Of a stretch of DNA of 64,000 bases, positions 2,709 through 60,460 are shown one piece after another. Made by a program: the position numbers and the translations under genes. This DNA is from a virus: the IMG/VR virus record IMGVR_UViG_3300005573_000052; one strand, written 5' to 3'. The notes beneath the pieces are model-generated. The model did no database searches and was not told the origin of the DNA. It saw only the letters and a list, made by a program, of their open reading frames with translations. Position 1 is the first letter of the stretch. The number at the start of each line of letters is the position of its first letter.

Positions 2709-2786
2709 TCTTGAGGGAAACGCGGGTTCAACCCCCGCCGGGGCCACGGGGCCTCGTCGTCTAGACAGGTTAAGAAACCCTCTAAC
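2709..2786 (+). ncRNA. Circularly permuted tRNA mimic (3' half precedes 5' half)
   Basis: GAGGG, AAAC, T-arm GCGGG-TTCAACC-CCCGC, acceptor hairpin CGGGGCC-ACGG-GGCCTCG, D-arm, CCCTC. Confidence 0.75.
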
Positions 2787-3949: not shown

Positions 3950-4026
3950 GGTCCTCTGATGTAAATGGATAAGCATACCGCCCTTTGAAGGCGAGAGTCA
4001 CGTTTGCCAAGCGTGGGGGACTGCCA
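3950..4026 (+). tRNA. tRNA-Gln(TTG)
   Basis: GGTCCTC/GGGGACT GCCA; CT TTG AA loop. Confidence 0.85.
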
Positions 4027-4033
4027 ATTTTAC

Positions 4034-4109
4034 TGCTCCGTGGGATAACATCTAGTCCACACCCCTCTGAAGGGTCGAGGCGTCCGTGAGACTCGGGCCG
4101 GGGCAGCCA
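4034..4109 (+). tRNA. tRNA-Gln(CTG)
   Basis: TGCTCCG/CGGGGCA GCCA; CT CTG AA loop. Confidence 0.88.
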
Positions 4110-5132: not shown

Positions 5133-5269
5133 CAGCGGTAGCATATCGGTCAATGCTGTCCTCGCAACATGGGACTAGTCTGCCCAGCCTCCAAAGGCCA
5201 CGGATTAAGGTTGGGCAGAGAGACGCCCGCAAAGAGCGTTGAAGTGGGGTTCAAATCCCCTCACGCTGA
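5133..5269 (+). ncRNA. tRNA-like RNA with two extra hairpins in the variable region
   Basis: CAGCG/CGCTG ends, D-arm AGCAT/ATGCT, TTCAAAT T-arm, long CTGCCCAGCC/GGTTGGGCAG hairpin; anticodon ambiguous. Confidence 0.5.
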
Positions 5270-5350
5270 ATTCACCTATAGGGTTGACGGGCGGTAGCGC
5301 AGTTTGGCGACACCGGGTCGCTCGCAAACTGCTCCGATACCCTCCTTTTC

Positions 5351-5425
5351 GCGCATGTAGCTCAAAGGAAGAGCAGAGGACTCATAATCCTTTGGTTGAG
5401 ATGTCGGAATTCTCCGTGCGCACCA
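5351..5425 (+). tRNA. tRNA-Met/Ile2(CAT)
   Basis: GCGCATG/CGTGCGC ACCA; GAGGA-CT CAT AA-TCCTT. Confidence 0.9.
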
Positions 5426-5429
5426 TTTT

Positions 5430-5507
5430 GGTTCCTACTCCTAGATCAGCGAGGACCTCGACTCGTAATCGAGAACTGAGGCGGCTGCGATGCCGCAGGA
5501 ACCTCCA
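5430..5507 (+). tRNA. tRNA-Thr(CGT)
   Basis: GGTTCCT/AGGAACC TCCA; CTCGA-CT CGT AA-TCGAG. Confidence 0.82.
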
Positions 5508-5526
5508 TCTTTTTTTACTTTTTCAC

Positions 5527-5556
5527 TTGACACCGGCCACCCAATCGGGCTATGGT
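5527..5556 (+). promoter_or_regulatory. Sigma70-type promoter for the Y RNA-Ro60 unit
   Basis: TTGACA-N18-TATGGT, 28 nt before the first Y RNA. Confidence 0.7.
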
Positions 5557-5583
5557 ATCCGTGTTCATTCTCACTTTCCCTTT

Positions 5584-5662
5584 TGCCGTGGTGCCAGACG
5601 ACCAGTTCCTCGCTGTAATCGACCGGACGAAAGTCCACTCTGGTCGTCGCCTGTTCCCGGCA
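5584..5662 (+). ncRNA. Y RNA 1 (minimal)
   Basis: TGCCG/CGGCA terminal stem; shared motif TGGTGCCAGA / TCGCCTGTTCC; GACGACCA/TGGTCGTC stem; next to Ro60. Confidence 0.75.
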
Positions 5663-5670
5663 GTTATTTT

Positions 5671-5758
5671 TCTGCGATGGCGTCAGATGACGGTTACTTC
5701 TTCAATCCATAACTGAATCGCCCGCAAGGGCTAACCGTTCTCGCTTGTTCCTCGCAGA
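5671..5758 (+). ncRNA. Y RNA 2
   Basis: TCTGCGA/TCGCAGA; TGGCGTCAGA / TCGCTTGTTCC; ACGGTTA/TAACCGT. Confidence 0.78.
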
Positions 5759-5772
5759 TTCTCTTTCTCACT

Positions 5773-5922
5773 TTTGGAGTGGCGTAGAGCTAACCAGTTC
5801 CTCGAATACGGATCGAGAGGTCGGGGTTCAAATCCCCGGTGTCGCTTCGGCGACACTAGTGTAACGGTAGCACGCTTAGTGGTCGCAAGGCCACGCTCTG
5901 GTGCTCGCTTGTTCCCTCCAAA
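5773..5922 (+). ncRNA. yrlA: Y RNA 3, YrlA-like with permuted tRNA domain
   Basis: TTTGGAG/CTCCAAA; TGGCGTAGA / TCGCTTGTTCC; T-arm CGGGG-TTCAAAT-CCCCG, then closed acceptor GTGTCGC-TTCG-GCGACAC, then D-arm GTGT-AACGGTA-GCAC. Confidence 0.85.
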
Positions 5923-5973
5923 TTCATTTCCTCGTTGCGCAGCAATTACGCCGCCGACGATGGCACTAGACCC

Positions 5974-7293
5974 ATGAAGACCAATACAAAATCCCCCCGC
6001 GCCAAAGTGTTTACCCACGAAGGTGCTCCCGCTGCCCACGCCACCGCCAAGCAGCAACTCCGCCGCTCCGTCATGTCCTGCATGCTCTGGGAGTCGGAAT
6101 TCCATGAAAGCGGCGAAGATATCGCCCAGCGAATCGCCTCGCTCGTTGCCAAGTGCAAACCTGAGGACGTGGCACTGATCGCTCGCGAAGCCCGCGAACA
6201 GATGAAACTGCGACATGTCCCGCTGCTCCTCGTGCGTGAAATGGCCCGCCTGCCTTCTCACCGCCCTTACGTGGCCGACACGCTTAACGCCGTCATCCAG
6301 CGCGCCGACGAACTCTCCGAGTTTCTGGCTATCTACTGGAAGTCGGGCAAAGACCAGCCTCTCGCCGCTCAGGTCAAAAAGGGACTGGCTCGGGCCTTCA
6401 CCCGATTCGATGAGTATGCCCTGAGCAAATATGACCGCGCCGGTGATGTCAAACTGCGGGATGCTCTCTTCCTCTGTCATGCCAAGCCGCAGGACAAGAA
6501 GCAAGAACGCCTGTGGAAACGACTCGTCAATGGCGAATTGAAGCCTGCCGGAACTTGGGAAGAGCAGCTTTCCGCCGGTAAGGACAAAAAGGCAGTGTTC
6601 ACCAAGTTGATCAAAGACGGTGAACTGGGCGCTCTCGCCCTGCTCCGCAACCTGCGCGGCATGACCGAGGCGGGAGTTAGCCACGAAATCATCACCCAAG
6701 CATTGGCTGGCATGAAAACCGAGCGGGTTCTCCCGTTTCGCTTCATCTCTGCCGCACGCTACGCCCCCCAGTTCGAGGCCGAATTGGAACAGGCGATGTT
6801 CAAGTGTCTTGAGGGAGTGGACAAGCTGAAGGGCTACACCATTCTGCTTGTGGACGTGTCGGGCTCCATGGATTCACCGATCAGCGCCAAGTCTGACCTG
6901 ACGCGTATCGACGCTGCTTGCGGACTCGCCATCCTATTGCGCGAAATCTGCGAACGGGTGGATATCTGCACGTTCTCCAGCGGGATAGTCGGAGTCCCTC
7001 CTCGCCGAGGATTCGCGCTGCGGGATGCCATCAAGAACTCGCAGCCCCATGCAAGCACCGATCTAGGTAGAGCACTCGATACCCTCAAGTATGGAACGGG
7101 TAAAGATCGCATCGTCGTCATCACGGACGAACAGTCCCATACGGCGGTTAATTCCCCCAAGACCACGGGTTACATGCTCAACGTCGCTTCAGCGGCAAAC
7201 GGAGTGGGTTACGGGGCCTGGAACCATATCGACGGTTGGAGTGAGAGTTGTGTGAAATTCGTGGCCGAGCTGGAGAAGCAAAGCGCCGATTGA
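5974..7293 (+). CDS. rsr: Ro60/TROVE domain RNA-binding protein
   Basis: LRRSVMSCMLWE, RHVPLLL, LALLRNLR, vWA MIDAS DVSGSM and VVITDEQS; start moved to MKTNTK. Confidence 0.95.
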   Translation: MKTNTKSPRAKVFTHEGAPAAHATAKQQLRRSVMSCMLWESEFHESGEDIAQRIASLVAKCKPEDVALIAREAREQMKLRHVPLLLVREMARLPSHRPYVADTLNAVIQRADELSEFLAIYWKSGKDQPLAAQVKKGLARAFTRFDEYALSKYDRAGDVKLRDALFLCHAKPQDKKQERLWKRLVNGELKPAGTWEEQLSAGKDKKAVFTKLIKDGELGALALLRNLRGMTEAGVSHEIITQALAGMKTERVLPFRFISAARYAPQFEAELEQAMFKCLEGVDKLKGYTILLVDVSGSMDSPISAKSDLTRIDAACGLAILLREICERVDICTFSSGIVGVPPRRGFALRDAIKNSQPHASTDLGRALDTLKYGTGKDRIVVITDEQSHTAVNSPKTTGYMLNVASAANGVGYGAWNHIDGWSESCVKFVAELEKQSAD

Positions 7294-7316
7294 CCGGGCT
7301 GAAAGGTCAAGTTTAC

Positions 7317-7349
7317 AGAGGGGGCGAACAAGCCTCCTCTTTCTTTTTT
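7317..7349 (+). terminator. Intrinsic terminator after Ro60
   Basis: AGAGGGGGC...GCCTCCTCT hairpin followed by a T-run. Confidence 0.65.
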
Positions 7350-7351
7350 AC

Positions 7352-7427
7352 GGCTCGTTGCCTCAGTGTTCACAGGAGTGCCTTTGTAGCGCACCATTCG
7401 GCGGTTAAAATCCGCCACGAGCCTCCA
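7352..7427 (+). tRNA. tRNA-Thr(TGT)
   Basis: GGCTCGT/ACGAGCC TCCA; TT TGT AG loop. Confidence 0.8.
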
Positions 7428-7434
7428 TTTTCAC

Positions 7435-7596
7435 GCCCTAGTAGCTCAGGCCCTACCAAATATCGGGTATCAGAAGAGCGCGCTCATTAGTTGGTCACCC
7501 AAGCGAACGGCACTTAGTGAACTCATCAATTGAGGGTTTGCGATGCTGCCGTTCGACAAGCGAGGTCGTCGGTGCCAAATCCGACCTAGGGCTCCA
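7435..7596 (+). tRNA. tRNA (Thr-type acceptor) with a large anticodon-arm insertion and D-loop hairpin
   Basis: GCCCTAG/CTAGGGC TCCA, GCTC/GAGC D stem, AGGTC variable loop, GTCGG/CCGAC T stem; insertion contains CGAACGGCA/TGCCGTTCG stem. Confidence 0.65.
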
Positions 7597-7602
7597 TTTC
7601 AT

Positions 7603-7681
7603 GGTGACAAAGGCAGAAGTAACTCAAAGCGCGGCCCTGTGAAGGCCGTTTAAGCGGGTGTGAGACCCGTTTGTCACCCCA
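7603..7681 (+). tRNA. tRNA-His(GTG)
   Basis: G-1:C73 8-bp acceptor; CGGCC-CT GTG AA-GGCCG. Confidence 0.92.
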
Positions 7682-7687
7682 ATTCAC

Positions 7688-7764
7688 GCGACACTCGGCA
7701 ACCGAATAGTCACCCTGCTTGCGGAGCAGAATCAGTCCCAGTTTGAATCTGGGGTGTCGCACCA
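7688..7764 (+). tRNA. tRNA-Arg(GCG)
   Basis: GCGACAC/GTGTCGC ACCA; CTGC-TT GCG GA-GCAG. Confidence 0.82.
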
Positions 7765-8193: not shown

Positions 8194-8283
8194 AGAGAGC
8201 CAACTGAACGAGGTTCAGGACTGCTTGGAAAGCAGCTCGGGCCGCGCAAGCGACCTACGGGGCAGCACCGTGACTCTCTGCCA
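8194..8283 (+). tRNA. tRNA-Ser(GGA)
   Basis: AGAGAG/CTCTCT GCCA; CTGC-TT GGA AA-GCAG; long variable arm. Confidence 0.85.
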
Positions 8284-9409
8284 TTTTCACCGGTCGTCCA
8301 CGTCTCCCTCGAAAAGTCGAAGACAACAATCCAAATCGTATCATCGCGTCACGTGTTACCTCGTGATTAAATCCAATGGCTAATCCAGCCTGTCGAAGAG
8401 ACCCTTTCGTTTTAAACACTTCGTAAGCTAATTGTGCCTGCTCGGCTGTTGGACGATGAAGTGGTTTACGAATGCGTTTTTGGCTCACGAGAGCCTGTTC
8501 ATGAGTATATCCCGCATGGCGTCGAACCCAATAACCTATAGGAGGTAACGCAACTCCGTATCGCTTGGCCCAACGACGAACCGAGTTACCGTTTACGCCA
8601 TAATCCTTGGCTATGTTCTCTATGGACTTACTCCACACAAGGATGGTCAACTCTTCCTTGGAAGGCCACACTACCTTACGGGAGGCCACTGCGGCAGCAG
8701 CTCGATTGCCATATATGGGCTTGTCCAGAGAACGCAAATATTCTTTCGCCTCGGGAGTCATAGCCCTAACGGATCGTTCTTTGGGGGATATCCGTATGTG
8801 CACGTCACCGAGGTCTCGCGACGTATCCGGTTCGTCTGTAGACCGAAAAACCAACCCCTCTTTGGCCATGATTCCATGAATGGTGTCGTAATTACGACCC
8901 TTAGGGGCCAAACCCAATCGCCGACACACATCACTCGGACTAGTGCATTGGGGGATTGCCTCAATATACATCTGGCGAGATACCTTGACTGTTCGTTTAC
9001 GCGTGGCGGCCCCCTTGTGATTAGGGGCTAATCCATGACAATTTCGACAAAGAACCTGAAGATTCTTTAACTCGTTATTATTATGGTTACCGTCTACGTG
9101 ATGTAACTCTATCGGTATCGGCTCTCCCTGCCATCTGTCATTACCGCATCTCTCACAGACAGGACTTTTAAGACCCTCTCGAAAAAGACGCTTCTTCAAA
9201 TTATCGCTCGCGAGAGGATACTGATTAGATAGGTAAACCTCGATAGGGCGTCCACTGTAAGGGGGCCAGTGAGACGTGTCAATCTGATTCTCGGCAAGGA
9301 GTCGTCTAATACGTTTTTTGTCTCCTCCTCCAAGAAGACGCAAAAGCATATTGCAGGAGGTTGATTCGGCGGCAAGTTGACGTAGTTGGTCGATATTAAG
9401 GGTAGTCAT
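8255..9409 (-). CDS. HNH homing endonuclease (antisense to the tRNA array)
   Basis: CERC...IELHHVDGNHNNNELKNLQVLCRNCH; start MTTLNI; GGTGTATC motif at 9420-9427 on the minus strand. Confidence 0.85.
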   Translation of the reverse strand: MTTLNIDQLRQLAAESTSCNMLLRLLGGGDKKRIRRLLAENQIDTSHWPPYSGRPIEVYLSNQYPLASDNLKKRLFREGLKSPVCERCGNDRWQGEPIPIELHHVDGNHNNNELKNLQVLCRNCHGLAPNHKGAATRKRTVKVSRQMYIEAIPQCTSPSDVCRRLGLAPKGRNYDTIHGIMAKEGLVFRSTDEPDTSRDLGDVHIRISPKERSVRAMTPEAKEYLRSLDKPIYGNRAAAAVASRKVVWPSKEELTILVWSKSIENIAKDYGVNGNSVRRWAKRYGVALPPIGYWVRRHAGYTHEQALVSQKRIRKPLHRPTAEQAQLAYEVFKTKGSLRQAGLAIGFNHEVTRDAMIRFGLLSSTFRGRRGRPVKMAESHGAAP

Positions 9410-9475
9410 GTTCACCCTAGATACACCGCTGAAGACCCGGTTTGTGTGCAATTCTCCACTTTCCGCCATTTTTAC

Positions 9476-9565
9476 GGTAGGTGAATCCGTGCAGGTCACG
9501 GAGCGGCCCTCGAAAAGCCTGCGCGCCCGCAAGGACGTTTTCTGCGACTGAAACGCCTACCGCCA
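9476..9565 (+). tRNA. tRNA-Ser(CGA)
   Basis: GGTAGG/CCTACC GCCA; CT CGA AA loop; long variable arm. Confidence 0.78.
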
Positions 9566-9741: not shown

Positions 9742-10365
9742 ATGAGCACCATCCTCGACAAGCAGATTTGCCTCAAGCTAAACAAGAACTGGCAAGGCGT
9801 AGGCTTTGTCACGATAAAACAAGCTGTCACCTTCCTCTGCTCGGAGCAGGACGGCGAGCATCCCGGTTTCGCGCTCGATATCGAGATGGTCACAAATGAG
9901 AACGGCGAATCGGTCCTGTCCTACGCCAACCCGACCAAGTGGGAGGACTGGCTGAAGCTTCCCGTGCGCGAGTCCGACCTTGCTATCACGACTGGTCGCG
10001 GGCAAATTCGCGCTCCGCTGGTAGTTGTCTGTGCCAACTATGCCAAGGTTCCGACCCGCACCACGCGCTGGTCCACGGGCAATGTCCATCGCCGCGACAA
10101 TTACACCTGCGCCTACACGGGCGAGAAGCTCAGTCACGCAACCGCCACGGTTGACCATATCCAGCCCCGTTCACGCGGCGGCAAGGACGCGTGGGAAAAT
10201 ACCGTGTCGTGTCACAAGCGCGTCAACCTGCTCAAGGCCGACCGCACGCCCGAGGAAGCCGGACTGAAACTGCTCGTCAAGCCCAAGGCTCCGCCCATCA
10301 TGCCCGTGGTCATCACGGCGGATGAGGCGCGGCACGAGGCGCAGCGACACTTCCTGATTAACTAG
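9742..10365 (+). CDS. HNH endonuclease (McrA-like)
   Basis: RDNYTCAYTG...TVDHIQPRSRGG...N..KA. Confidence 0.85.
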   Translation: MSTILDKQICLKLNKNWQGVGFVTIKQAVTFLCSEQDGEHPGFALDIEMVTNENGESVLSYANPTKWEDWLKLPVRESDLAITTGRGQIRAPLVVVCANYAKVPTRTTRWSTGNVHRRDNYTCAYTGEKLSHATATVDHIQPRSRGGKDAWENTVSCHKRVNLLKADRTPEEAGLKLLVKPKAPPIMPVVITADEARHEAQRHFLIN

Positions 10366-10412: not shown

Positions 10413-10452
10413 GTTGACATCGTATGACCAATTTGTCTATCATGAAGTAAAC

Positions 10453-15291: not shown

Positions 15292-15335
15292 AACCCATTG
15301 AGAATGGGTGTATATAGGTGAAACCCCACCTCTCC

Positions 15336-16388
15336 ATGAAAAGGAAAATACAAAAAGAATGGCATGAAGAAATCTGCCAAAAACGGCGAAGCGGCCAGAC
15401 CGTAAAGTCTTTGGCAAAAGAATATAATGTTAGCGAAACAGCCATCGGAAGAACGCTTAGGGCGAATGGGGTAAAAATAGCACCGCGATATTTTCGCAAA
15501 CATTGGTTTGATTTCCGTTTTTTTGATGAGATCGACTCCGAAGAAAAATCTTACATTTTGGGCTTTTTATATGCAGACGGCTCCAATTGTCCTAAAAATG
15601 GTAAGGTTACTTTAGAACTTCAGGATGCTGATAAGGAAATTTTAGAAAAAATTGCAACGGCAATAGGTTTCAGCGGAAAGTTATTTCCTTTAACCCCAAG
15701 ATGCAAAGGGAAGGTTTATCCTTCATGCCGACTTTCACTAAATAGTCGAATATTTTCAGATCGTTGTTCTGAACTCGGAGTTGTTTATGACAAATCCTTT
15801 AAGATTCAGATGCCTTCAGAAACAATTGTTCCTCCCTCTCTTCTTCCCCATTTTATCCGGGGCTATTTTGACGGAGATGGGAGCTTTTCTTTTCGACCAG
15901 AAAAGAGTCGCTTTGCAACGATAAATTTTATTGGGAACCCCTTGTTTATCGACCAATTACAACAATATTTTGTATCTGCTCTCAGCATCAAAGGGTCCAC
16001 CCATCCTCATAAAAACCAAAAATCGAAATATCTAGGTATCTCTGGTAACCTTCAGATAGAAAGGGTTTTGGAACATTTGTATCAAAATGCCACCATTTAT
16101 CTTAAACGGAAACACGATAAGTATATTATCTTTAAGGGGTTGCGTAGAACTTTCTCTCGTAAGGCCGGATGCTCATCTCGGTTTTTTGGTGTTTCTAAAA
16201 CTGAAGACAAAACATGGAAAGCTGGGGTAAATTTTGGAGGCAAACAGCACTATCTGGGAGCCTTTAAGACAGAGGAGGAGGCGGCACGGGTTTACGATAA
16301 ATGGTGTAGAGAACGAGGTCACAATCTTCAGTTGTTGAATTTTCCTAAGTCCGAGGCGGTAGACATACTGCTTGCTGGGGTAGGGTAA
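15336..16388 (+). CDS. LAGLIDADG homing endonuclease with AP2 domain
   Basis: YILGFLYADGS, FIRGYFDGDGS; C-terminal YLGAFKTEEEAARVYD; AT-rich; GGTGTATA at 15307. Confidence 0.9.
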   Translation: MKRKIQKEWHEEICQKRRSGQTVKSLAKEYNVSETAIGRTLRANGVKIAPRYFRKHWFDFRFFDEIDSEEKSYILGFLYADGSNCPKNGKVTLELQDADKEILEKIATAIGFSGKLFPLTPRCKGKVYPSCRLSLNSRIFSDRCSELGVVYDKSFKIQMPSETIVPPSLLPHFIRGYFDGDGSFSFRPEKSRFATINFIGNPLFIDQLQQYFVSALSIKGSTHPHKNQKSKYLGISGNLQIERVLEHLYQNATIYLKRKHDKYIIFKGLRRTFSRKAGCSSRFFGVSKTEDKTWKAGVNFGGKQHYLGAFKTEEEAARVYDKWCRERGHNLQLLNFPKSEAVDILLAGVG

Positions 16389-19231: not shown

Positions 19232-19321
19232 TTGGGAGTTGACAGTTGGACCCCAACTGGGCTATCATACACCTGTCAGTCACTTCACCCATACCCAACA
19301 ACACCCAACCCATACATCACC

Positions 19322-30090: not shown

Positions 30091-30269
30091 TGACTGTTTC
30101 ACTCCGCTACCCCAAGTGTATCTCCTGCTCTCAACCCCTTTTTCCAGTCCAGCTAGCCCAAGGTCCAAGGTAACGTAACCCACCCCGCCCATGCCCAACG
30201 CACGTTAGCTCGGGTAAAAATAACAAGAGAATCTGTCGAATCTTGTTCTGGCGGGTGTATAGTAGGCCG

Positions 30270-31508
30270 ATGCACAAAGGTTACAGTTTCCGCCTTTACC
30301 CGACAGAGACCCAAAAGGCTCTGCTTGAAAAGCATTTTGGTTGCGCTAGATGGGTCTATAATTGGGCTCTGGAACAGAAAATCGCCTATTACCAGAAAGA
30401 AAAAAAGGGAGTGTCAATGTATGAGGTGGCAAGGGAATTGACCAAGCTAAAGCGTGAAGAGGGGAAAGAATGGCTTCAAGAAGTGTCGAGTCAGTCTCTC
30501 GGCTATTCCATGATGCATTTGGATAGAGCTTTTACTAATTTTTTCAAGCACAAAAAGGGATTTCCTAAGTTCAAAAGCAAGAAAAAGAGCCGAGCGAGTT
30601 TCACTCACAATTTGAGTAACGATCTCAACGAAGAGAAGGGGCTTGTTTACGCAACCAATTTTAGAGAGGGGATAAGATGTGTTTTCACTCGTCCTGTCGA
30701 AGGGAAGATTAAGCGGATGACGTTTTCCCGGACCAAGACGGGAAAATACTATGTCGGGATATTAGTCGAGACCCCGGAGGAGTTCCCCACACCCCCGCCT
30801 CCAAGGGAAGAACTCTCCGTAGGAATAGACTTAGGGCTGAAGACGTTTGCAACATTAGACGACGGAACCAAGATTGATACCCCGAAATTCCTTCAAGGTT
30901 CCCTCCAAAGGCTCAGGCGAGCGCAAAAGCATTTAAGTCGCTGCCAATATGGGTCCAAAAATTGGGAAAAGGCGCGTGACAAGGTGGCCAGACTGCATGA
31001 GCACGTAGCTAACTCCCGAAAAGATTTTCTGCACAAGGTCAGTCATAAACTAGTATGCGATAATCAAGCTACTACGTTATGCATTGAAAACTTGGACATA
31101 ACAGAAATGATAGAAAAGGCCCCTTCGCGGCGTAAAAGGTCGATTTACGACGCGGGGTGGAGGATGTTTAGGGGTATGCTAGAATACAAGTGCGAGTGGC
31201 ACGGCAAAAATTTAATGATGATAGGCCAGTTCGAGCCTTCAAGCAAGATATGCTCGTGCTGTGGGGAGATGAACAAAGACCTCGGCAAAAAACGAGAATG
31301 GACGTGTAAAAAATGTGAGACACACCACGACCGAGACATCAATGCCGCCAAAAACATAAAAAAAATAGCCTTTTGCAAGCAGAACACTGTGTCTGCCAAG
31401 ATTTTACCGCCGGACAGGCGGGATGTTAAGCCTGTGGAGAGTTCCGTTTTGGAATTCAACGAAGCAGGAACGGAAAAGGATCGCCTAACTCCCTCACGGG
31501 GTGTATAG
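30270..31508 (+). mobile_element. tnpB: TnpB RNA-guided endonuclease (IS200/IS605 family), no TnpA
   Basis: YSFRLYPT, FGCARWVYN, GIDLGLK, IENL, SSKICSCCG, CKKC..HDRDINAAKNI. Confidence 0.95.
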
Positions 31509-50921: not shown

Positions 50922-50998
50922 CCGGATTTTGGTCTAGACACCTGATTCGCGCCGCCGGTTGACACGTTCACCCCAACTGATCTATAATTGACGTTGCC

Positions 50999-57868: not shown

Positions 57869-60460
57869 TTAACGCGTTTTGCGGGTGGACTTTTTGGCGG
57901 CTTCGGCGAGGTCGGCGACCTTGGTGCCACCGATGGAGGCGACTTGAGCGAAGGCTTCCATGTATTTGTCCTTCAGGCTTTGACCGCGAGCGGCGTCGCC
58001 GAGGTCATTGACCACGGGAGCATCAGTCGGATTGGCTTGGGCAGAAGCGAGAGCCTGTTGAGCAGCAGCCTTGCAAGCTTTGTCATCAGCGTCATCATCC
58101 GGCTCCTTGTCGTTCTTCTTATCGCCGAGCTTTTCACCGCCCTTGTCGGGGAAAGCGGCCTTGGACCAGCCCTTATAGAGCTTCTTGGCGCGGGCAAGCC
58201 ACTTGGCGAACGCGGCGTCATCGGCGCAGGCCTTGATCTCGTCAATCACTTCGGCGCGAGTCTCGTCGTCAAAGGCGAAATTCGCCTCGACCGTGGCCAT
58301 GCGCTCGTTGAACTGGGCCTCGGCGGCAGCGGCCTGCTGCGCGGCGACAGCCTCGTCATGGGATTTCTTGAGAGCAGCAAACTGGCGCTGCATGTCTTCA
58401 AGGGCGGCTTGTGTGGTGGCCTGAGCGGCAACGGCGTCGGCGCGCTCCTTGGCGAACTTCTCGCTGGCCTTGGCGATTTCCTCGGTAAAGAGGGCTACGT
58501 TAGCCATGGCGGTAGGAAGCTCTTCCACGGTTTTGACAGACGCAATGGTCTGCTTGATGTCATCGAGATTCATGGTAGGTGATACGGTGGGGTTGGGAGT
58601 GGAAACTGATACACCTGCGGTGGCGGTGTTTGTGAGAGTCGGCATGAGAGCGCGCCCGGCGGCGGAGGCAAAAATGGCGGCGAGACGGGCGAAAACGTCA
58701 TCCAGCGCGGCCTTGATGGCATTGTCCGTGTAAGGCGCGTTGCGACCCTTGTCGTTCAGTGCGTTGTTGGCATCCTGCTTCAGCGCGGCCTCGGGGCGCA
58801 CGGTCGGATATTGGTCGCCGATGCGAGGGTGAACGAGCTTGGTGTCGTCAGTTTGTGGCGGCATACCGGGCGTCATGGAGGTGATGGTGACATGCGGGGG
58901 CATGGCCAGCTCTTTTTCCAGTTGTAGCGTCGCGCCGTCGAAAATCTTGACATTGGTTAGCTTGGTGCCGTCCGACAGCGTAACATCCACGCCGTTGACC
59001 AGCGGCGCGCTTCCGTTGTTGGGCAATTGGATGTTGGCGAGGGCATTCTGCCACTCGGGGGTAAGCTTGAGGAAACAGGAGGAAGTCGTGGACATAGGAA
59101 TGTCGGCTGTGGGGGTATACACCTGCTCGGCAGAGGTTTGACGGAGAGGGATTTCCACCGGGTCGCCGGTATGGGGGCGGAACGAGAGGGAATTGAAGGT
59201 CATGGCGTGGCCCATAAACCGCTTGTCGCCAACGTATTGCGCGGCGCGGCCCTTCTTGGTATAGCACAGGGTTAGGTGGGGTTGAAAATCGAGCCACGCA
59301 TAGTCGTTATCCGTGGAGGTGCGAAGTAGGTGATGGAGGGTGTGGATGTCCTGTCCCTCGACCGTGACCTTGAGGACATCATAAGGGGCATCGTCGCGCT
59401 CGAAAGCGGAAACTTCGCCCATCGTGATGGTAGCCGGACCCATGTCAGCCAGTGCGGTTTGGATAGGCGCGGCATCGGCGGTTTTGATGCCGTATAGCAC
59501 GGTGGCATGGCTTTCCGTCTCCCGCCCATATTTGCCCGCCCCCTCGCCCTCCCCATAATACAAATCGTCCTCCGGGATACTCGCCGCAAACTCCAGATAG
59601 CGCGCCGCGTCGGCGGACGAGAGAGTGAACTGAGTGGAACTGCGACTATAAAGCCCGGCATCCAGCACGTCGGCCAACGGGTGGACGAAATTGGGGTTGG
59701 ACAGCACTGGAGCAATGCCCTTGACGGCTGCGGCGGGCACCGCGACAATCCCGGCCCCGAGCGGCACAATCTCGCCCCTCAGCACCCGCGCGACACGCTC
59801 GCCAGTCGATGCAATCGCCCCCTTGCCGCCATTGCACCTGAGGGTCTTGTCCCACTTCTCCCAGTCGCCGGAATCGGGTGTGATGAGTTTGGTCGCCAGA
59901 GCTAAGTCCGACTTCCCCTTGGGCAGCACGACCACATCGTAGTCATCGAACCCGACCTCGAATGACAGGGACAGCCTGCCCTTGTCGCGCGAACCGGGCG
60001 CGGCGGACTGGATGATGAAATTGCACAGGTCCTTGTCGGCGACCTTCCAGATGGCCATGGCGATGGCGATGTTGCATGGCTTGTTGGCTTCCCTCGCCTC
60101 GTCCACGGTGAGTAAGCGGTCGGTACCGATTTCGGACAGCCCAGCCTTGACGATGTAGCCCACAATCACGCCACGGTTGTGTTCGATATCGACCAGTTGG
60201 CCCTCGAACTTGGGGTAGACTCGGAGAGTGTCTTCGAGACTGACTGCGTCATCATTGAGGTTACAGACTCCGCCTACTGCCAGATTGCCAACGACATACA
60301 AAATGGTCGGATGATCCTCCGGGTTGATAGAGGAGGGAAGCAGCCCCTTCAGTCGGTCAATCGACGCGCAAATCTCGTTTCGCTCTGCATCGGAGGGCGG
60401 GTGATAGTGGCCGACTGCCTCGAAGCGGGCCTTGTATTTGGGCGTGTAGAACTCGGGCAT
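57869..60460 (-). CDS. Prohead protease/scaffold with internal 2H phosphoesterase (Acb1/gp57B-like) domain
   Basis: N-terminal DIEHNR...LSLSFEVGF protease-like region; SHATVLYG and PHLTLCY; C-terminal coiled-coil scaffold. Confidence 0.8.
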   Translation of the reverse strand: MPEFYTPKYKARFEAVGHYHPPSDAERNEICASIDRLKGLLPSSINPEDHPTILYVVGNLAVGGVCNLNDDAVSLEDTLRVYPKFEGQLVDIEHNRGVIVGYIVKAGLSEIGTDRLLTVDEAREANKPCNIAIAMAIWKVADKDLCNFIIQSAAPGSRDKGRLSLSFEVGFDDYDVVVLPKGKSDLALATKLITPDSGDWEKWDKTLRCNGGKGAIASTGERVARVLRGEIVPLGAGIVAVPAAAVKGIAPVLSNPNFVHPLADVLDAGLYSRSSTQFTLSSADAARYLEFAASIPEDDLYYGEGEGAGKYGRETESHATVLYGIKTADAAPIQTALADMGPATITMGEVSAFERDDAPYDVLKVTVEGQDIHTLHHLLRTSTDNDYAWLDFQPHLTLCYTKKGRAAQYVGDKRFMGHAMTFNSLSFRPHTGDPVEIPLRQTSAEQVYTPTADIPMSTTSSCFLKLTPEWQNALANIQLPNNGSAPLVNGVDVTLSDGTKLTNVKIFDGATLQLEKELAMPPHVTITSMTPGMPPQTDDTKLVHPRIGDQYPTVRPEAALKQDANNALNDKGRNAPYTDNAIKAALDDVFARLAAIFASAAGRALMPTLTNTATAGVSVSTPNPTVSPTMNLDDIKQTIASVKTVEELPTAMANVALFTEEIAKASEKFAKERADAVAAQATTQAALEDMQRQFAALKKSHDEAVAAQQAAAAEAQFNERMATVEANFAFDDETRAEVIDEIKACADDAAFAKWLARAKKLYKGWSKAAFPDKGGEKLGDKKNDKEPDDDADDKACKAAAQQALASAQANPTDAPVVNDLGDAARGQSLKDKYMEAFAQVASIGGTKVADLAEAAKKSTRKTR

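What the first reader, a model, noticed from the sequence alone, without database searches (positions are those of the whole stretch)
5527..7349. Phage Ro60 with three different tandem Y RNAs, as an autonomous unit inside the tRNA array
Seen: own promoter (5527-5556), three RNAs that share the bipartite motif TGGYGY(C)AGA / TCGCYTGTTCC inside covarying terminal stems, then a TROVE gene and a terminator. The internal modules differ. RNA1 and RNA2 carry only small hairpins, while RNA3 has a full YrlA-type permuted tRNA domain. Established: bacterial Ro60 (Rsr) binds Y RNAs encoded next to it, YrlA mimics tRNA, and in Deinococcus a Y RNA tethers Rsr to PNPase. Ro60/YrlA has been reported in a few phages. 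Inference: three interchangeable adaptors could direct one Ro60 ring to different partners (tRNA quality control or repair, PNPase, or decoying of host tRNases) to protect the phage tRNA pool.
Basis: partly seen in the sequence, partly recalled or inferred. Interest (0 to 1): 0.85.

Follow-up and report, generated by a model that had tools for sequence, protein, structure and literature searches.

The report
Phage Ro60 gene with three Y RNAs
An uncultured hot-spring phage carries a small operon for a Ro60-type RNA-binding ring protein and three partner "Y RNAs", one of them a sealed, rearranged tRNA copy; it is real, but it is an ordinary member of a protein-RNA module already described in bacteria and phages.

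Summary
Window 5527-7349 holds a promoter-like site, three structured RNAs (5583-5663, 5672-5757, 5774-5921), a 439-aa TROVE+vWA gene (5974-7293) and a terminator-like hairpin.

- **Protein:** it matches the solved Thermus phage phiLo Ro60 by sequence (E 2e-21). Its model matches phiLo, Xenopus and Deinococcus Ro60 by fold.
- **RNAs:** a covariance model of the shared handle finds only these three RNAs in the 64-kb window. It finds 66 more RNAs beside TROVE genes in 25 related viral contig loci, 15 in three cultured phages and 96 in 28 bacterial loci (mostly Acidobacteriota). All lie on the TROVE strand, in arrays of 2-8. All 17 modelled pairs show compensatory changes.
- **RNA3:** a model built without the window scores it at 71.9 bits. 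Re-permuted, its core reads as a complete tRNA-Arg(ACG).
- **Rfam:** no YrlA (RF02553) match was listed in the window. Relatives match it only below cut-off.

Phage Ro60 with Y RNAs is already published (Chen 2014; Hu 2025). This scan has noted similar arrays on other DNA many times. I rate it a new member of a known kind. Function was not tested. The proposed link to protecting the phage tRNA pool gets little support from context.

The parts
5527..5556 (+). Sigma-70-like promoter (TTGACA, 18 nt, TATGGT), 27 nt upstream of RNA1
   Evidence: 10 of 12 matches, which is at chance level on its own; the spacer motif CCCAAYYG..CTAT is shared with + strand sites at 10414, 19239 and 50959. That pattern was derived post hoc.
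5583..5663 (+). Y RNA 1 (mini type): 6-bp terminal stem, handle UGGUGCCAGA / UCGCCUGUUCC, 9-bp inner stem, small hairpin with a 7-nt loop CUGUAAU, and a GAAA-capped hairpin at 5625-5636
   Evidence: fold -33.1 kcal/mol, z -3.3. R1 52.0 bits, E 9e-12; covariation in the family.
5672..5757 (+). Y RNA 2 (mini type): handle UGGCGUCAGA / UCGCUUGUUCC, the family motif GGUUACUUC, a hairpin, and a GCAA-capped hairpin at 5720-5731
   Evidence: fold. R1 60.4 bits, E 4e-14. R2 36.5 bits over the handle parts.
5774..5921 (+). Y RNA 3 (YrlA type): the handle plus a sealed, circularly permuted tRNA. Anticodon-arm-like hairpin 5801-5817 (loop AUACGGA), AGGU 5818-5821, T arm 5822-5838, acceptor 5839-5856 capped by UUCG (5846-5849), UA 5857-5858, D arm 5859-5873, extra GCAA hairpin 5879-5894
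   Evidence: R1 31.5 bits; model R2, built from relatives only, 71.9 bits, E 1.4e-15, full length; the re-permuted core is called tRNA-Arg(ACG) by ARAGORN, while the native order is not. Rfam tRNA 20.9 bits over part of it, and no YrlA match listed.
5974..7293 (+). Ro60 homologue, 439 aa: HEAT-repeat TROVE ring plus a vWA domain with a DxSxS (MIDAS) motif, DVSGSM
   Evidence: Pfam TROVE 3.2e-18, VWA_2 3.6e-06; phrog_850 RNA-binding protein 1.2e-48; phiLo Ro60 9KOP/9L5Y E 2.2e-21. AF2 pLDDT 86; Foldseek 9kop 1.6e-19, 1yvp 1.9e-14, 2nvo 3e-12. D294, S296 and S298 are invariant in 21 relatives.
7317..7350 (+). Intrinsic-terminator-like hairpin (9 bp, 6 of them G-C) followed by a T run, 24 nt after the stop codon
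   Evidence: pattern scan, number of sites at chance level; hairpin within a -20 kcal/mol fold. The position directly after the gene is the main argument.
5430..5507 (+). Context: upstream tRNA-like gene (7-bp acceptor, anticodon-loop CUCGUAA, non-canonical T loop, encoded UCCA). It ends 20 nt before the promoter.
   Evidence: fold. Not called by ARAGORN or Rfam. A canonical tRNA lies at 5351-5422.
7352..7427 (+). Context: downstream tRNA-like gene (7-bp acceptor, T arm, encoded UCCA). It starts 2 nt after the terminator T run.
   Evidence: fold. Not called by ARAGORN or Rfam.

Best explanation
This is a phage-borne Ro60/Y-RNA ribonucleoprotein module.

Shown: a Ro60-fold protein gene lies directly downstream of three RNAs. 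These RNAs belong to a large covarying family found only beside, and on the same strand as, genes of this protein subfamily in phages and bacteria.

Inferred:
- One promoter (5527-5556) drives a transcript carrying three Y RNAs and the Ro60 mRNA, ending at the hairpin at 7317-7350. The RNAs are cut out of this precursor.
- Each RNA binds the outer face of the Ro60 ring through its shared handle. The handle is the terminal stem, a G-G/C-C pair step, 5' UGGYG(N)AG (the published GNCGAA(N)G / vertebrate GGUCCGA type) and 3' YCGYUUGUUCC.
- The differing interiors act as effector modules. RNA3 presents a sealed tRNA-Arg(ACG) look-alike with an intact T/D elbow, able to engage tRNA-binding enzymes. 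RNA1 and RNA2 present short hairpins.
- By analogy with Deinococcus Rsr-Yrn1-PNPase and phiLo Ro60-Yrl-PNPase, the particles most likely tether Ro60 to, or modulate, host RNA-processing enzymes such as PNPase during infection.
For: Protein:
- Pfam TROVE and VWA_2.
- phmmer to phiLo Ro60, E 2.2e-21.
- AF2 model with pLDDT 86 matches 9KOP, 1YVP and 2NVO at E 1.6e-19 to 3e-12, TM about 0.6-0.7.
- MIDAS residues are invariant.

RNA family:
- In 18 mini RNAs the inner stem, which I did not use to pick them, is 86% paired, and 8 of 9 pairs show double changes.
- R1 gives 69 hits in 226 kb. All are on the TROVE strand and all are beside the gene.
- In 63 RNAs, 93% of cells are paired and 17 of 17 pairs show double changes, including G-C to A-U in the 'invariant' GG/CC step. 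Slid controls give 41-54% paired.
- The family is also present in cultured phages: Sopo 5, CcrColossus 8, Papperlapapp 2. It is present in 28 of 28 sampled bacterial loci, with 96 hits.

RNA3:
- R2, built without the window, scores 71.9 bits.
- ARAGORN reads the re-permuted core as tRNA-Arg(ACG).
- Relatives of the same type are sub-threshold Rfam YrlA hits at the same coordinates.

Literature:
- Y RNAs lie next to Ro60 on the same strand, with a GNCGAA(N)G motif and at least two Y RNAs per species (PMC4201824).
- Phage Ro60 binds two phage Y-like RNAs and host PNPase (PMC12135203).
Against: - There is no expression or binding data for this phage.
- No Rfam YrlA (RF02553) match was listed for RNA3 at E<=10.
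- The three window handles differ from the published GNCGAA(N)G motif at 1-2 positions.
- Promoter and terminator rest on consensus scans whose counts are at chance level.
- The PNPase link is by analogy only. No PNPase or RNA-repair gene was identified in the window. Only a weak, below-cut-off 2H/2'-5' ligase-like hit was seen.
Confidence: 0.85

Rival explanations
1. Anti-defence decoy or sequestration device. The Ro60 particle with its tRNA-shaped and hairpin RNAs exists mainly to neutralise a host defence, for example by soaking up a tRNA- or anticodon-directed nuclease or another defence protein, rather than for RNA quality control. This overlaps with the best explanation in anatomy and differs in purpose.
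For: - Bas63 gp130, structurally Ro60-like and next to tRNA genes, was reported to counter the Ppl defence system (PMC11482910, read).
- Hu 2025 speculate that PNPase capture could blunt type III CRISPR.
- In a heuristic search for a first hairpin (found in 60 of 78 family RNAs), 18 hairpins had 7-nt loops. 16 of those 18 have U at loop position 2 and a purine at position 6, as anticodon loops do. RNA1 (CUGUAAU, read by eye) and RNA3 (AUACGGA) are of this kind (heuristic).
Against: - The same module is common in Acidobacteriota genome assemblies, including contigs over 1 Mb. That fits a housekeeping or stress RNA-metabolism role at least as well.
- No defence or anti-defence gene was identified beside it here.
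- The loop statistic comes from a scoring scheme that mildly favours 7-nt loops.
Confidence: 0.2
2. One reading: the three adaptors serve to protect or quality-control the phage's own tRNA pool, which is why the unit sits inside the tRNA array.
For: - Here the unit is flanked within 2-20 nt by tRNA-like genes.
- Several relatives (L005, L009, L017, L019, L032) also sit in tRNA arrays.
- Salmonella rsr-yrlBA lies in the RtcBA RNA-repair operon, which is regulated by damaged tRNAs (abstract of PMC7790460, listed).
Against: - About two thirds of related viral loci show no tRNA gene within 2.5-3 kb, for example the 43-kb Xanthomonas phage locus L027.
- The bacterial loci I sampled carry the arrays without any need for a phage tRNA set.
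- Co-location with tRNA genes may simply reflect origin. Sim and Wolin proposed that YrlA arose from dimeric tRNA transcripts (cited in 10.1101/312249).
Confidence: 0.15
3. The RNAs are not stable trans-acting RNAs. Instead they are cis elements of the Ro60 mRNA leader, that is, autoregulatory binding sites or attenuators.
For: - They lie between the promoter-like site and the gene.
- Each is followed by a pyrimidine or U-rich spacer.
Against: - In relatives the same RNAs lie downstream of the gene (L005, L008, L018, and phiLo L030) or more than 1 kb upstream among tRNA genes.
- Numbers vary from 1 to 8 per locus.
- One type carries a full tRNA-like domain.
- Homologous YrlA and Yrn RNAs accumulate as discrete Rsr-bound RNAs (PMC4201824).
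Confidence: 0.05
4. RNA3 is a permuted tRNA gene that is processed into a working tRNA-Arg(ACG).
For: - The re-permuted core is a full cloverleaf with anticodon ACG.
- M. smegmatis YrlA is cleaved by RNase P and receives CCA in vivo (PMC4201824).
Against: - The acceptor is sealed by UUCG with no discriminator base or CCA.
- The D arm and anticodon arm are separated by the handle and an extra hairpin.
- I know of no bacterial ligation pathway for this junction.
- The layout is the conserved YrlA-type layout in 20 relatives.
Confidence: 0.03

Closest known systems
Thermus phage phiLo Ro60 (phiRo60; PDB 9KOP, 9L5Y) with Yrl1 and Yrl2 (Hu et al. 2025, PMC12135203)
   Same: - Both are phage-encoded TROVE+vWA ring proteins. 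This is the best sequence match among solved structures (E 2.2e-21) and the best fold match (E 1.6e-19, TM 0.69).
- Several Y-like RNAs are encoded next to the gene.
- Both come from hot-spring settings.
   Different: - Identity is only about 25% (tblastn 25.8%, Foldseek 24-25%), and the proteins are 439 versus 500 aa.
- The published Yrl1 and Yrl2 were picked upstream of the gene by a CGAA motif.
- My handle model instead matches two elements downstream of phiRo60 (L030 3804-3867 at E 3e-06; 3995-4072 at E 0.09) and nothing upstream.
- No tRNA-like Yrl is reported for phiLo, whereas RNA3 here has one.
Bacterial and phage YrlA / YrlB with Rsr (Chen et al. 2014, PMC4201824; Rfam RF02553; structure preprint 10.1101/312249)
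   Same: - Encoded within 4 kb of the Ro60 gene and on the same strand.
- A GNCGAA(N)G-type motif near the 5' end.
- The conserved YUAY step (here UUAC in GGUUACUUC).
- The order hairpin, T arm, sealed acceptor, UA, D arm.
- More than one Y RNA per locus, one tRNA-like and others simple hairpins.
   Different: - No RF02553 match is listed for RNA3, and relatives reach only 30-52 of the 69 bits required.
- In Salmonella YrlA the stem leading to the Rsr site takes the place of the anticodon stem. In RNA3 a separate 5-bp stem with a 7-nt loop, followed by AGGU(C), gives a complete four-arm cloverleaf when re-permuted, and an extra GNRA hairpin follows the D arm.
- The mini RNAs lack T and D arms altogether.
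Deinococcus radiodurans Rsr-Yrn1/Yrn2-PNPase (RYPER) and metazoan Ro60-Y RNA particles
   Same: - The ring protein fold is shared (2nvo E 3e-12; 1yvp E 1.9e-14).
- The RNAs are modular: a Ro-binding stem plus an effector module.
- Several Y RNAs exist per genome.
- Yrn2, tRNA-Asp and Yrn1 are co-transcribed, a precedent for Y RNAs inside a tRNA operon.
   Different: - Sequence similarity to these proteins is too low for phmmer at E 0.01.
- No evidence here for PNPase tethering.
- The 3' handle strand CGYUUGUUCC is specific to this subfamily as far as I tested.
Bas63 gp130, a Ro60-like phage protein upstream of tRNA genes that counters the Ppl defence system (PMC11482910)
   Same: A Ro60-like phage protein encoded next to a tRNA gene stretch, with some 'tRNAs' suspected to be Y RNAs.
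   Different: I did not compare sequences. The anti-defence role there is experimental, and nothing comparable is known for this phage.

Membership tests
Ro60 / Rsr (TROVE + vWA ring protein) | TROVE (HEAT-repeat) domain followed by a vWA domain | tested here: met
   Pfam TROVE E 3.2e-18 (66.6 bits, cut-off 23) and VWA_2 28 bits (cut-off 27). vWA_Ro60 scores 20.8 bits, below its cut-off of 27.7.
Ro60 / Rsr (TROVE + vWA ring protein) | Closed ring fold like the solved Ro60 structures | tested here: met
   AF2 model with pLDDT 86 and pTM 0.80. Foldseek top 13 hits are all Ro60 entries (9kop, 9l5y, 1yvp, 2i91, 2nvo and human Ro60), E 1.6e-19 to 1e-10, TMq 0.60-0.69. Ring closure itself was not measured.
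Ro60 / Rsr (TROVE + vWA ring protein) | MIDAS motif (DxSxS) in the vWA domain | tested here: met
   DVSGSM at residues 294-299. D294, S296 and S298 are invariant in 21 relatives.
Ro60 / Rsr (TROVE + vWA ring protein) | Binds Y RNA on the outer surface and misfolded RNA in the central hole | not testable with these tools
   Needs EMSA, RIP or a structure.
YrlA (Rfam RF02553) | Score at or above the curated gathering threshold (69 bits) | tested here: not met
   No RF02553 match was listed in the window at gathering score or at E<=10. Relatives of RNA3 in Sopo, Satis, CcrColossus and L005 score 30-52 bits.
YrlA (Rfam RF02553) | Encoded within 4 kb of the Ro60 orthologue, on the same strand | tested here: met
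   RNA3 ends 52 nt before the start codon, on the same strand.
YrlA (Rfam RF02553) | tRNA-like domain in the order (V) - T arm - sealed acceptor - UA - D arm, with conserved T and D loop nucleotides | tested here: met
   GGUUCAAAUCC T loop, UUCG-capped 7-bp acceptor, UA, and a D loop AACGGUA containing GG. R2 alignment is full length at 71.9 bits. The consensus of 20 relatives has 28 of 30 covarying pairs.
YrlA (Rfam RF02553) | GNCGAA(N0-1)G motif near the 5' end | tested here: inconclusive
   RNA3 has GGCGUAG (one change), RNA2 has GGCGUCAG and RNA1 has GGUGCCAG. Exact GGCGAAG occurs in family members L001a, L002a and L018a.
Y RNA in the general sense (Ro60-bound modular RNA) | 5' and 3' ends pair into a stem that carries a conserved Ro-binding element, with a variable effector module inside | tested here: met
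   Terminal and inner stems covary: 93% paired and 17 of 17 pairs with double changes in 63 RNAs. Interiors range from about 25 to 190 nt.
Y RNA in the general sense (Ro60-bound modular RNA) | Physical association with Ro60 and dependence on it for stability | not testable with these tools
   No RNA data are available for this phage.
tRNA (Rfam RF00005) | Cloverleaf in the normal order with free acceptor ends | tested here: not met
   Native RNA3 scores 20.9 bits over part of it against a cut-off of 29, and ARAGORN finds nothing. Only the artificially re-permuted core is called tRNA-Arg(ACG).

The most novel reading that the evidence does not exclude
Ro60 in this subfamily may be a hub for a programmable set of handle-tagged RNA decoys. 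The arrays (3 RNAs here, up to 8 in Caulobacter phage CcrColossus and in Acidobacteriota) would display sealed whole-tRNA copies and bare anticodon-arm look-alikes of particular tRNAs. The set carried by a phage would be tuned to the tRNA-directed nucleases or tRNA-binding enzymes of its host, an RNA-based counter-defence. The mini RNAs and the conserved 3' handle strand have not, to my knowledge, been described.
Probability: 0.15. Interest if true: 0.75.

Novelty: new member of a known kind. Interest (0 to 1): 0.4.

Why it matters
For this window it matters little. It adds one more phage to a known protein-RNA partnership, and this scan has already noted similar arrays on other DNA.

The family-level by-products are more useful:
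- A compact handle model finds both the tRNA-like and the previously undetectable mini Y RNAs. It shows arrays of 2-8 RNAs in phages and bacteria.
- It flags likely mis-annotations, such as a 'tRNA-Gln' in CcrColossus and a small CDS in phiLo.
- It points to cultured systems where the unknown function of bacterial and phage Ro60 particles could be tested directly: CcrColossus on Caulobacter, Xanthomonas phage Sopo, and Occallatibacter savannae.

Tried and rejected
- **Rfam, window:** at gathering thresholds on the whole window, and at E<=10 on 5200-7700 and 5765-5930, no Y_RNA or YrlA match was listed. Only weak tRNA or mascRNA-like partial hits fell on RNA3.
- **Expression:** no RNA holder was listed for the stretch. 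Two hot-spring metagenome DNA runs hold it, one of which may be the source. A wastewater run held only short, diverged pieces of the protein gene. Laid contigs showed no variants in the RNAs.
- **Whole genome:** none is held for the window.
- **Re-permutation of relatives:** the automated version was noisy. About half of the YrlA-type RNAs gave an ARAGORN call, but the 'anticodon' depended on trimming. I use only the clean RNA3 result.
- **Anticodon-loop likeness of the first hairpin:** suggestive only, from a heuristic whose scoring mildly favours 7-nt loops.
- **Dispersed repeat or mobile element:** rejected, because there are no copies elsewhere in 64 kb and none on the other strand.
- **mRNA leader element and permuted tRNA gene:** considered and ranked low (see rival explanations).
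- **Terminal-stem covariation in my first set:** partly forced by how I picked candidates, since I required at least 4 pairs. I therefore rely on the inner stem and on model-found sequences.
- **Not done:** no complex prediction was run and no binding claim is made from one. I did not run R-scape (not available).
Full report
**What is there.** Window 5300-7600 reads, on the + strand, as follows.
- A canonical tRNA at 5351-5422 (Rfam 50 bits).
- A tRNA-like cloverleaf ending in UCCA at about 5430-5507, then a T run.
- A TTGACA-18-TATGGT site at 5527-5556.
- Three structured RNAs at 5583-5663, 5672-5757 and 5774-5921.
- A 439-codon ORF at 5974-7293.
- A 9-bp hairpin with a T run at 7317-7350.
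- Two bases later, another tRNA-like gene at about 7352-7427.

The window is a tailed phage. It encodes a tape-measure protein, a tail fibre J homologue, HNH endonucleases and a transposase. Two hot-spring metagenome runs hold the stretch, one of which may be its source. No whole genome is held for it.

**The protein.**
- Pfam finds TROVE (E 3.2e-18) and VWA_2. PHROGs finds phrog_850 'RNA-binding protein' (E 1.2e-48).
- Among solved structures, the only sequence matches are the two entries for Thermus phage phiLo Ro60 (9KOP and 9L5Y, E 2.2e-21).
- An AlphaFold2 model built on 21 relatives (pLDDT 86, pTM 0.80) has Ro60 entries as its 13 best PDB matches. These include phiLo (E 1.6e-19), Xenopus (1yvp, 1.9e-14), Deinococcus Rsr (2nvo, 3e-12) and human Ro60.
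- The vWA MIDAS motif DVSGSM is invariant in relatives.
- I conclude it is a compact Ro60 homologue.

**The RNAs.**
- Each of the three has a 6-bp terminal stem of unrelated sequence (GCCG.., CUGCGA.., UUGGAG..). These enclose 5' U-GG-Y-G..AG and 3' YCGYYUGUUCC, followed by an inner stem.
- I found 26 IMG/VR loci encoding relatives of the protein at 38-62% identity. A simple motif-plus-stem script then found the same bipartite arrangement next to the gene in most of them, with only one stray - strand match among the loci.
- In an alignment of 18 short members, the inner stem, which played no part in picking them, is 86% paired, and 8 of 9 pairs show changes on both sides.
- Covariance model R1, built from that alignment, gave 69 matches in 226 kb. 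All are on the TROVE strand and all are beside the gene. In the 64-kb window it matched only the three RNAs, at 52.0, 60.4 and 31.5 bits.
- On 63 model-aligned RNAs, 93% of cells pair, against 41-54% when partners are slid. All 17 pairs show compensatory changes. These include G-C to A-U at the two 'invariant' G-G/C-C steps, for example UAG...UCU in L007, L009 and L010. That alignment is fitted to the model, so it leans towards the structure. The change at the GG/CC step was not in the seed.
- Arrays of 2-5 RNAs per viral locus are the rule, usually mixing short 'mini' RNAs with tRNA-like ones.

**RNA3.**
- Its interior reads as follows:
  - a 5-bp hairpin with the 7-nt loop AUACGGA (5801-5817);
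  - AGGU;
  - a T arm with GGUUCAAAUCC;
  - a 7-bp acceptor sealed by UUCG (cap at 5846-5849);
  - UA;
  - a D arm GUGU-AACGGUA-GCAC (to 5873);
  - an extra GCAA-capped hairpin (5879-5894).
- I cut the sequence at the cap and rejoined it in tRNA order. ARAGORN then calls a complete tRNA-Arg(ACG). The native order gives nothing.
- Twenty tRNA-like relatives align well. Their consensus fold (handle, inner stem, T arm, acceptor hairpin, D arm) has 28 of 30 pairs with compensatory changes.
- Model R2, built from them without the window, scores RNA3 at 71.9 bits (E 1.4e-15, full length). It treats the extra hairpin as an insertion. L002 and L003 carry a GNRA hairpin at the same place.
- RNA1 and RNA2 also carry a GNRA hairpin just before the 3' inner strand (5625-5636 and 5720-5731).

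**Relation to YrlA.**
- Rfam holds YrlA as RF02553 (114 positions, cut-off 69 bits).
- On the records behind my loci it hits the same tRNA-like array members that R1 finds:
  - Sopo, 52.1 and 37.3 bits, inside L027 1857-1986 and 2323-2458;
  - CcrColossus, 42.3 bits, inside L028 1452-1590;
  - Satis, 43 bits;
  - L005's contig, 30.4 bits.
- All of these are below the cut-off.
- In the window no RF02553 match was listed, even at E<=10 on 166 nt. The tool keeps only the best of overlapping matches within one clan, so a weak YrlA match under the tRNA hit could have been hidden.
- RNA3 therefore works like a YrlA and shares its layout and context. By Rfam's curated criterion it is not a member.
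- The difference from Salmonella YrlA is as follows. There, the stem leading to the Rsr site stands in for the anticodon stem (10.1101/312249). Here a separate anticodon-arm-like hairpin followed by AGGU(C) is retained. This fits the published idea that YrlA arose from dimeric tRNA transcripts (inference).

**Breadth.**
- The protein subfamily occurs in 89 GenBank phage records. Hosts include Brevundimonas, Xanthomonas, Caulobacter, Rhizobium, Bacteroides (crAss001), Streptomyces, Gordonia, Vibrio and Thermus.
- R1 finds 5 RNAs upstream of the gene in Xanthomonas phage Sopo, 8 in Caulobacter phage CcrColossus and 2 in Brevundimonas phage Papperlapapp. It gives weaker hits in phiLo, a Rhizobium phage and Streptomyces phage Satis.
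- A scan of bacterial and archaeal genomes found at least 572 loci. The 80 best (57-65% identical) are mostly Acidobacteriota (Terriglobia). They include isolates Occallatibacter savannae AB23 and strain AB60, and contigs over 1 Mb.
- In 28 sampled loci, R1 found 96 RNAs, all on the gene's strand.
- The module is therefore cellular as well as viral. The window's three RNAs are an average array.

**Transcription signals.**
- The -35/-10 scan result is at chance frequency (1 found, 1.1 expected).
- A search for TTGACA-N18-TATGGT with up to 2 mismatches gave 11 sites against 3.7 expected. Four + strand sites share the spacer CCCAAYYG..CTAT. This suggests a phage promoter class, with the caveat that I derived the extended pattern from those same sites.
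- The terminator-like hairpin sits 24 nt after the stop codon.
- 'Own promoter and terminator' is therefore plausible but not shown.

**Function.**
- Shown: gene-RNA linkage and a conserved RNA architecture.
- Inferred from named precedents: the handle binds the Ro60 outer surface, and the interiors recruit or imitate partners. The precedents are Xenopus and Deinococcus Ro60-Y RNA, Rsr-Yrn1-PNPase, YrlA as a substrate of tRNA enzymes (PMC4201824), and phiRo60-Yrl-PNPase (PMC12135203).
ARAGORN finds tRNA genes near the TROVE gene in only about a third of related viral loci. Bacterial chromosomes also carry the arrays.
- An anti-defence role remains open. Bas63 gp130 is a precedent (PMC11482910). 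In a heuristic search for a first hairpin, 18 hairpins had 7-nt loops, and 16 of those 18 look like anticodon loops.

**Novelty.**
- Chen et al. 2014 reported 355 YrlA-like RNAs next to Ro60 in 254 bacteria and 22 phages. That includes several per locus, and at least two Y RNAs in every species tested.
- Hu et al. 2025 characterised a phage Ro60 with two Y-like RNAs.
- Earlier notes of this scan describe similar Ro60-RNA arrays on many other genomes.
- This locus is a new member of a known kind.
- I found no paper describing the mini RNAs, the conserved 3' handle strand, or arrays of up to eight RNAs. That is a family-level point, not specific to this window.

Noticed in passing
L030 3804-3867 and 3995-4072 (Thermus phage phiLo MH673673.1, downstream of phiRo60): Handle model R1 matches two elements directly downstream of the phiLo Ro60 gene (E 3e-06 and 0.09). 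Both have the UACUUC motif and terminal stems, and they overlap the annotated hypothetical CDS phiLo_25. The published Yrl1 and Yrl2 were chosen upstream by a CGAA motif, and R1 finds nothing there. phiLo may encode further, or different, Y RNAs than those studied.
   Followed up: partly
L028 1217-2410 (Caulobacter phage CcrColossus JX100810.1): Eight R1 matches in a row lie upstream of the TROVE gene. The annotated 'tRNA-Gln' (L028 1628-1695) lies inside one of them (1624-1788), so it is probably a Y RNA and not a tRNA. ARAGORN likewise calls 'tRNAs' inside Y RNAs in L009, L022 and L027.
   Followed up: partly
L042-L121 (genome contigs): The closest relatives of the phage protein (up to 65% identity) are in Acidobacteriota (Terriglobia) genomes, on contigs up to 2 Mb, each with 3-8 handle RNAs upstream. 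Cultured strains Occallatibacter savannae AB23 (L093) and Acidobacteria bacterium AB60 (L086) are among them. I did not check whether these copies are chromosomal or prophage-borne.
   Followed up: partly
window 5527-5553, 10414-10440, 19239-19265, 50959-50985 (+): Four promoter-like sites share an extended spacer, TTGACA-N7-MCCAAYYG-NN-CTAT. This may be a phage-specific promoter class. I derived the pattern from these same sites.
   Followed up: partly
window 2722-2778 (+): The T arm, sealed acceptor and D arm part of model R2 matches a handle-less element between tRNA genes (19.3 bits, E 0.01).
   Followed up: no
window 5430-5507 and 7352-7427 (+): The two tRNA-like genes that abut the module have 7-bp acceptors and encoded UCCA ends. 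The upstream one has a non-canonical T loop. Neither is called by ARAGORN or Rfam. By contrast, RNA3 keeps a textbook T loop and a D-loop GG.
   Followed up: partly
window 57869-60460 (-): An 863-aa ORF has a weak 2'-5' RNA ligase / 2H phosphoesterase-like stretch (Pfam 23.2 bits, below the cut-off of 27; phrog_755 RNA ligase E 1.3e-07). It is a possible RNA-repair function elsewhere in the phage.
   Followed up: no
window 30243-31508 (+), 8255-9532 (-), 9742-10365 (+), 15318-16388 (+): A transposase gene (phrog_506, E 9e-124) lies among the phage genes. Several homing-endonuclease-type ORFs (HNH, LAGLIDADG) lie around the tRNA array.
   Followed up: no
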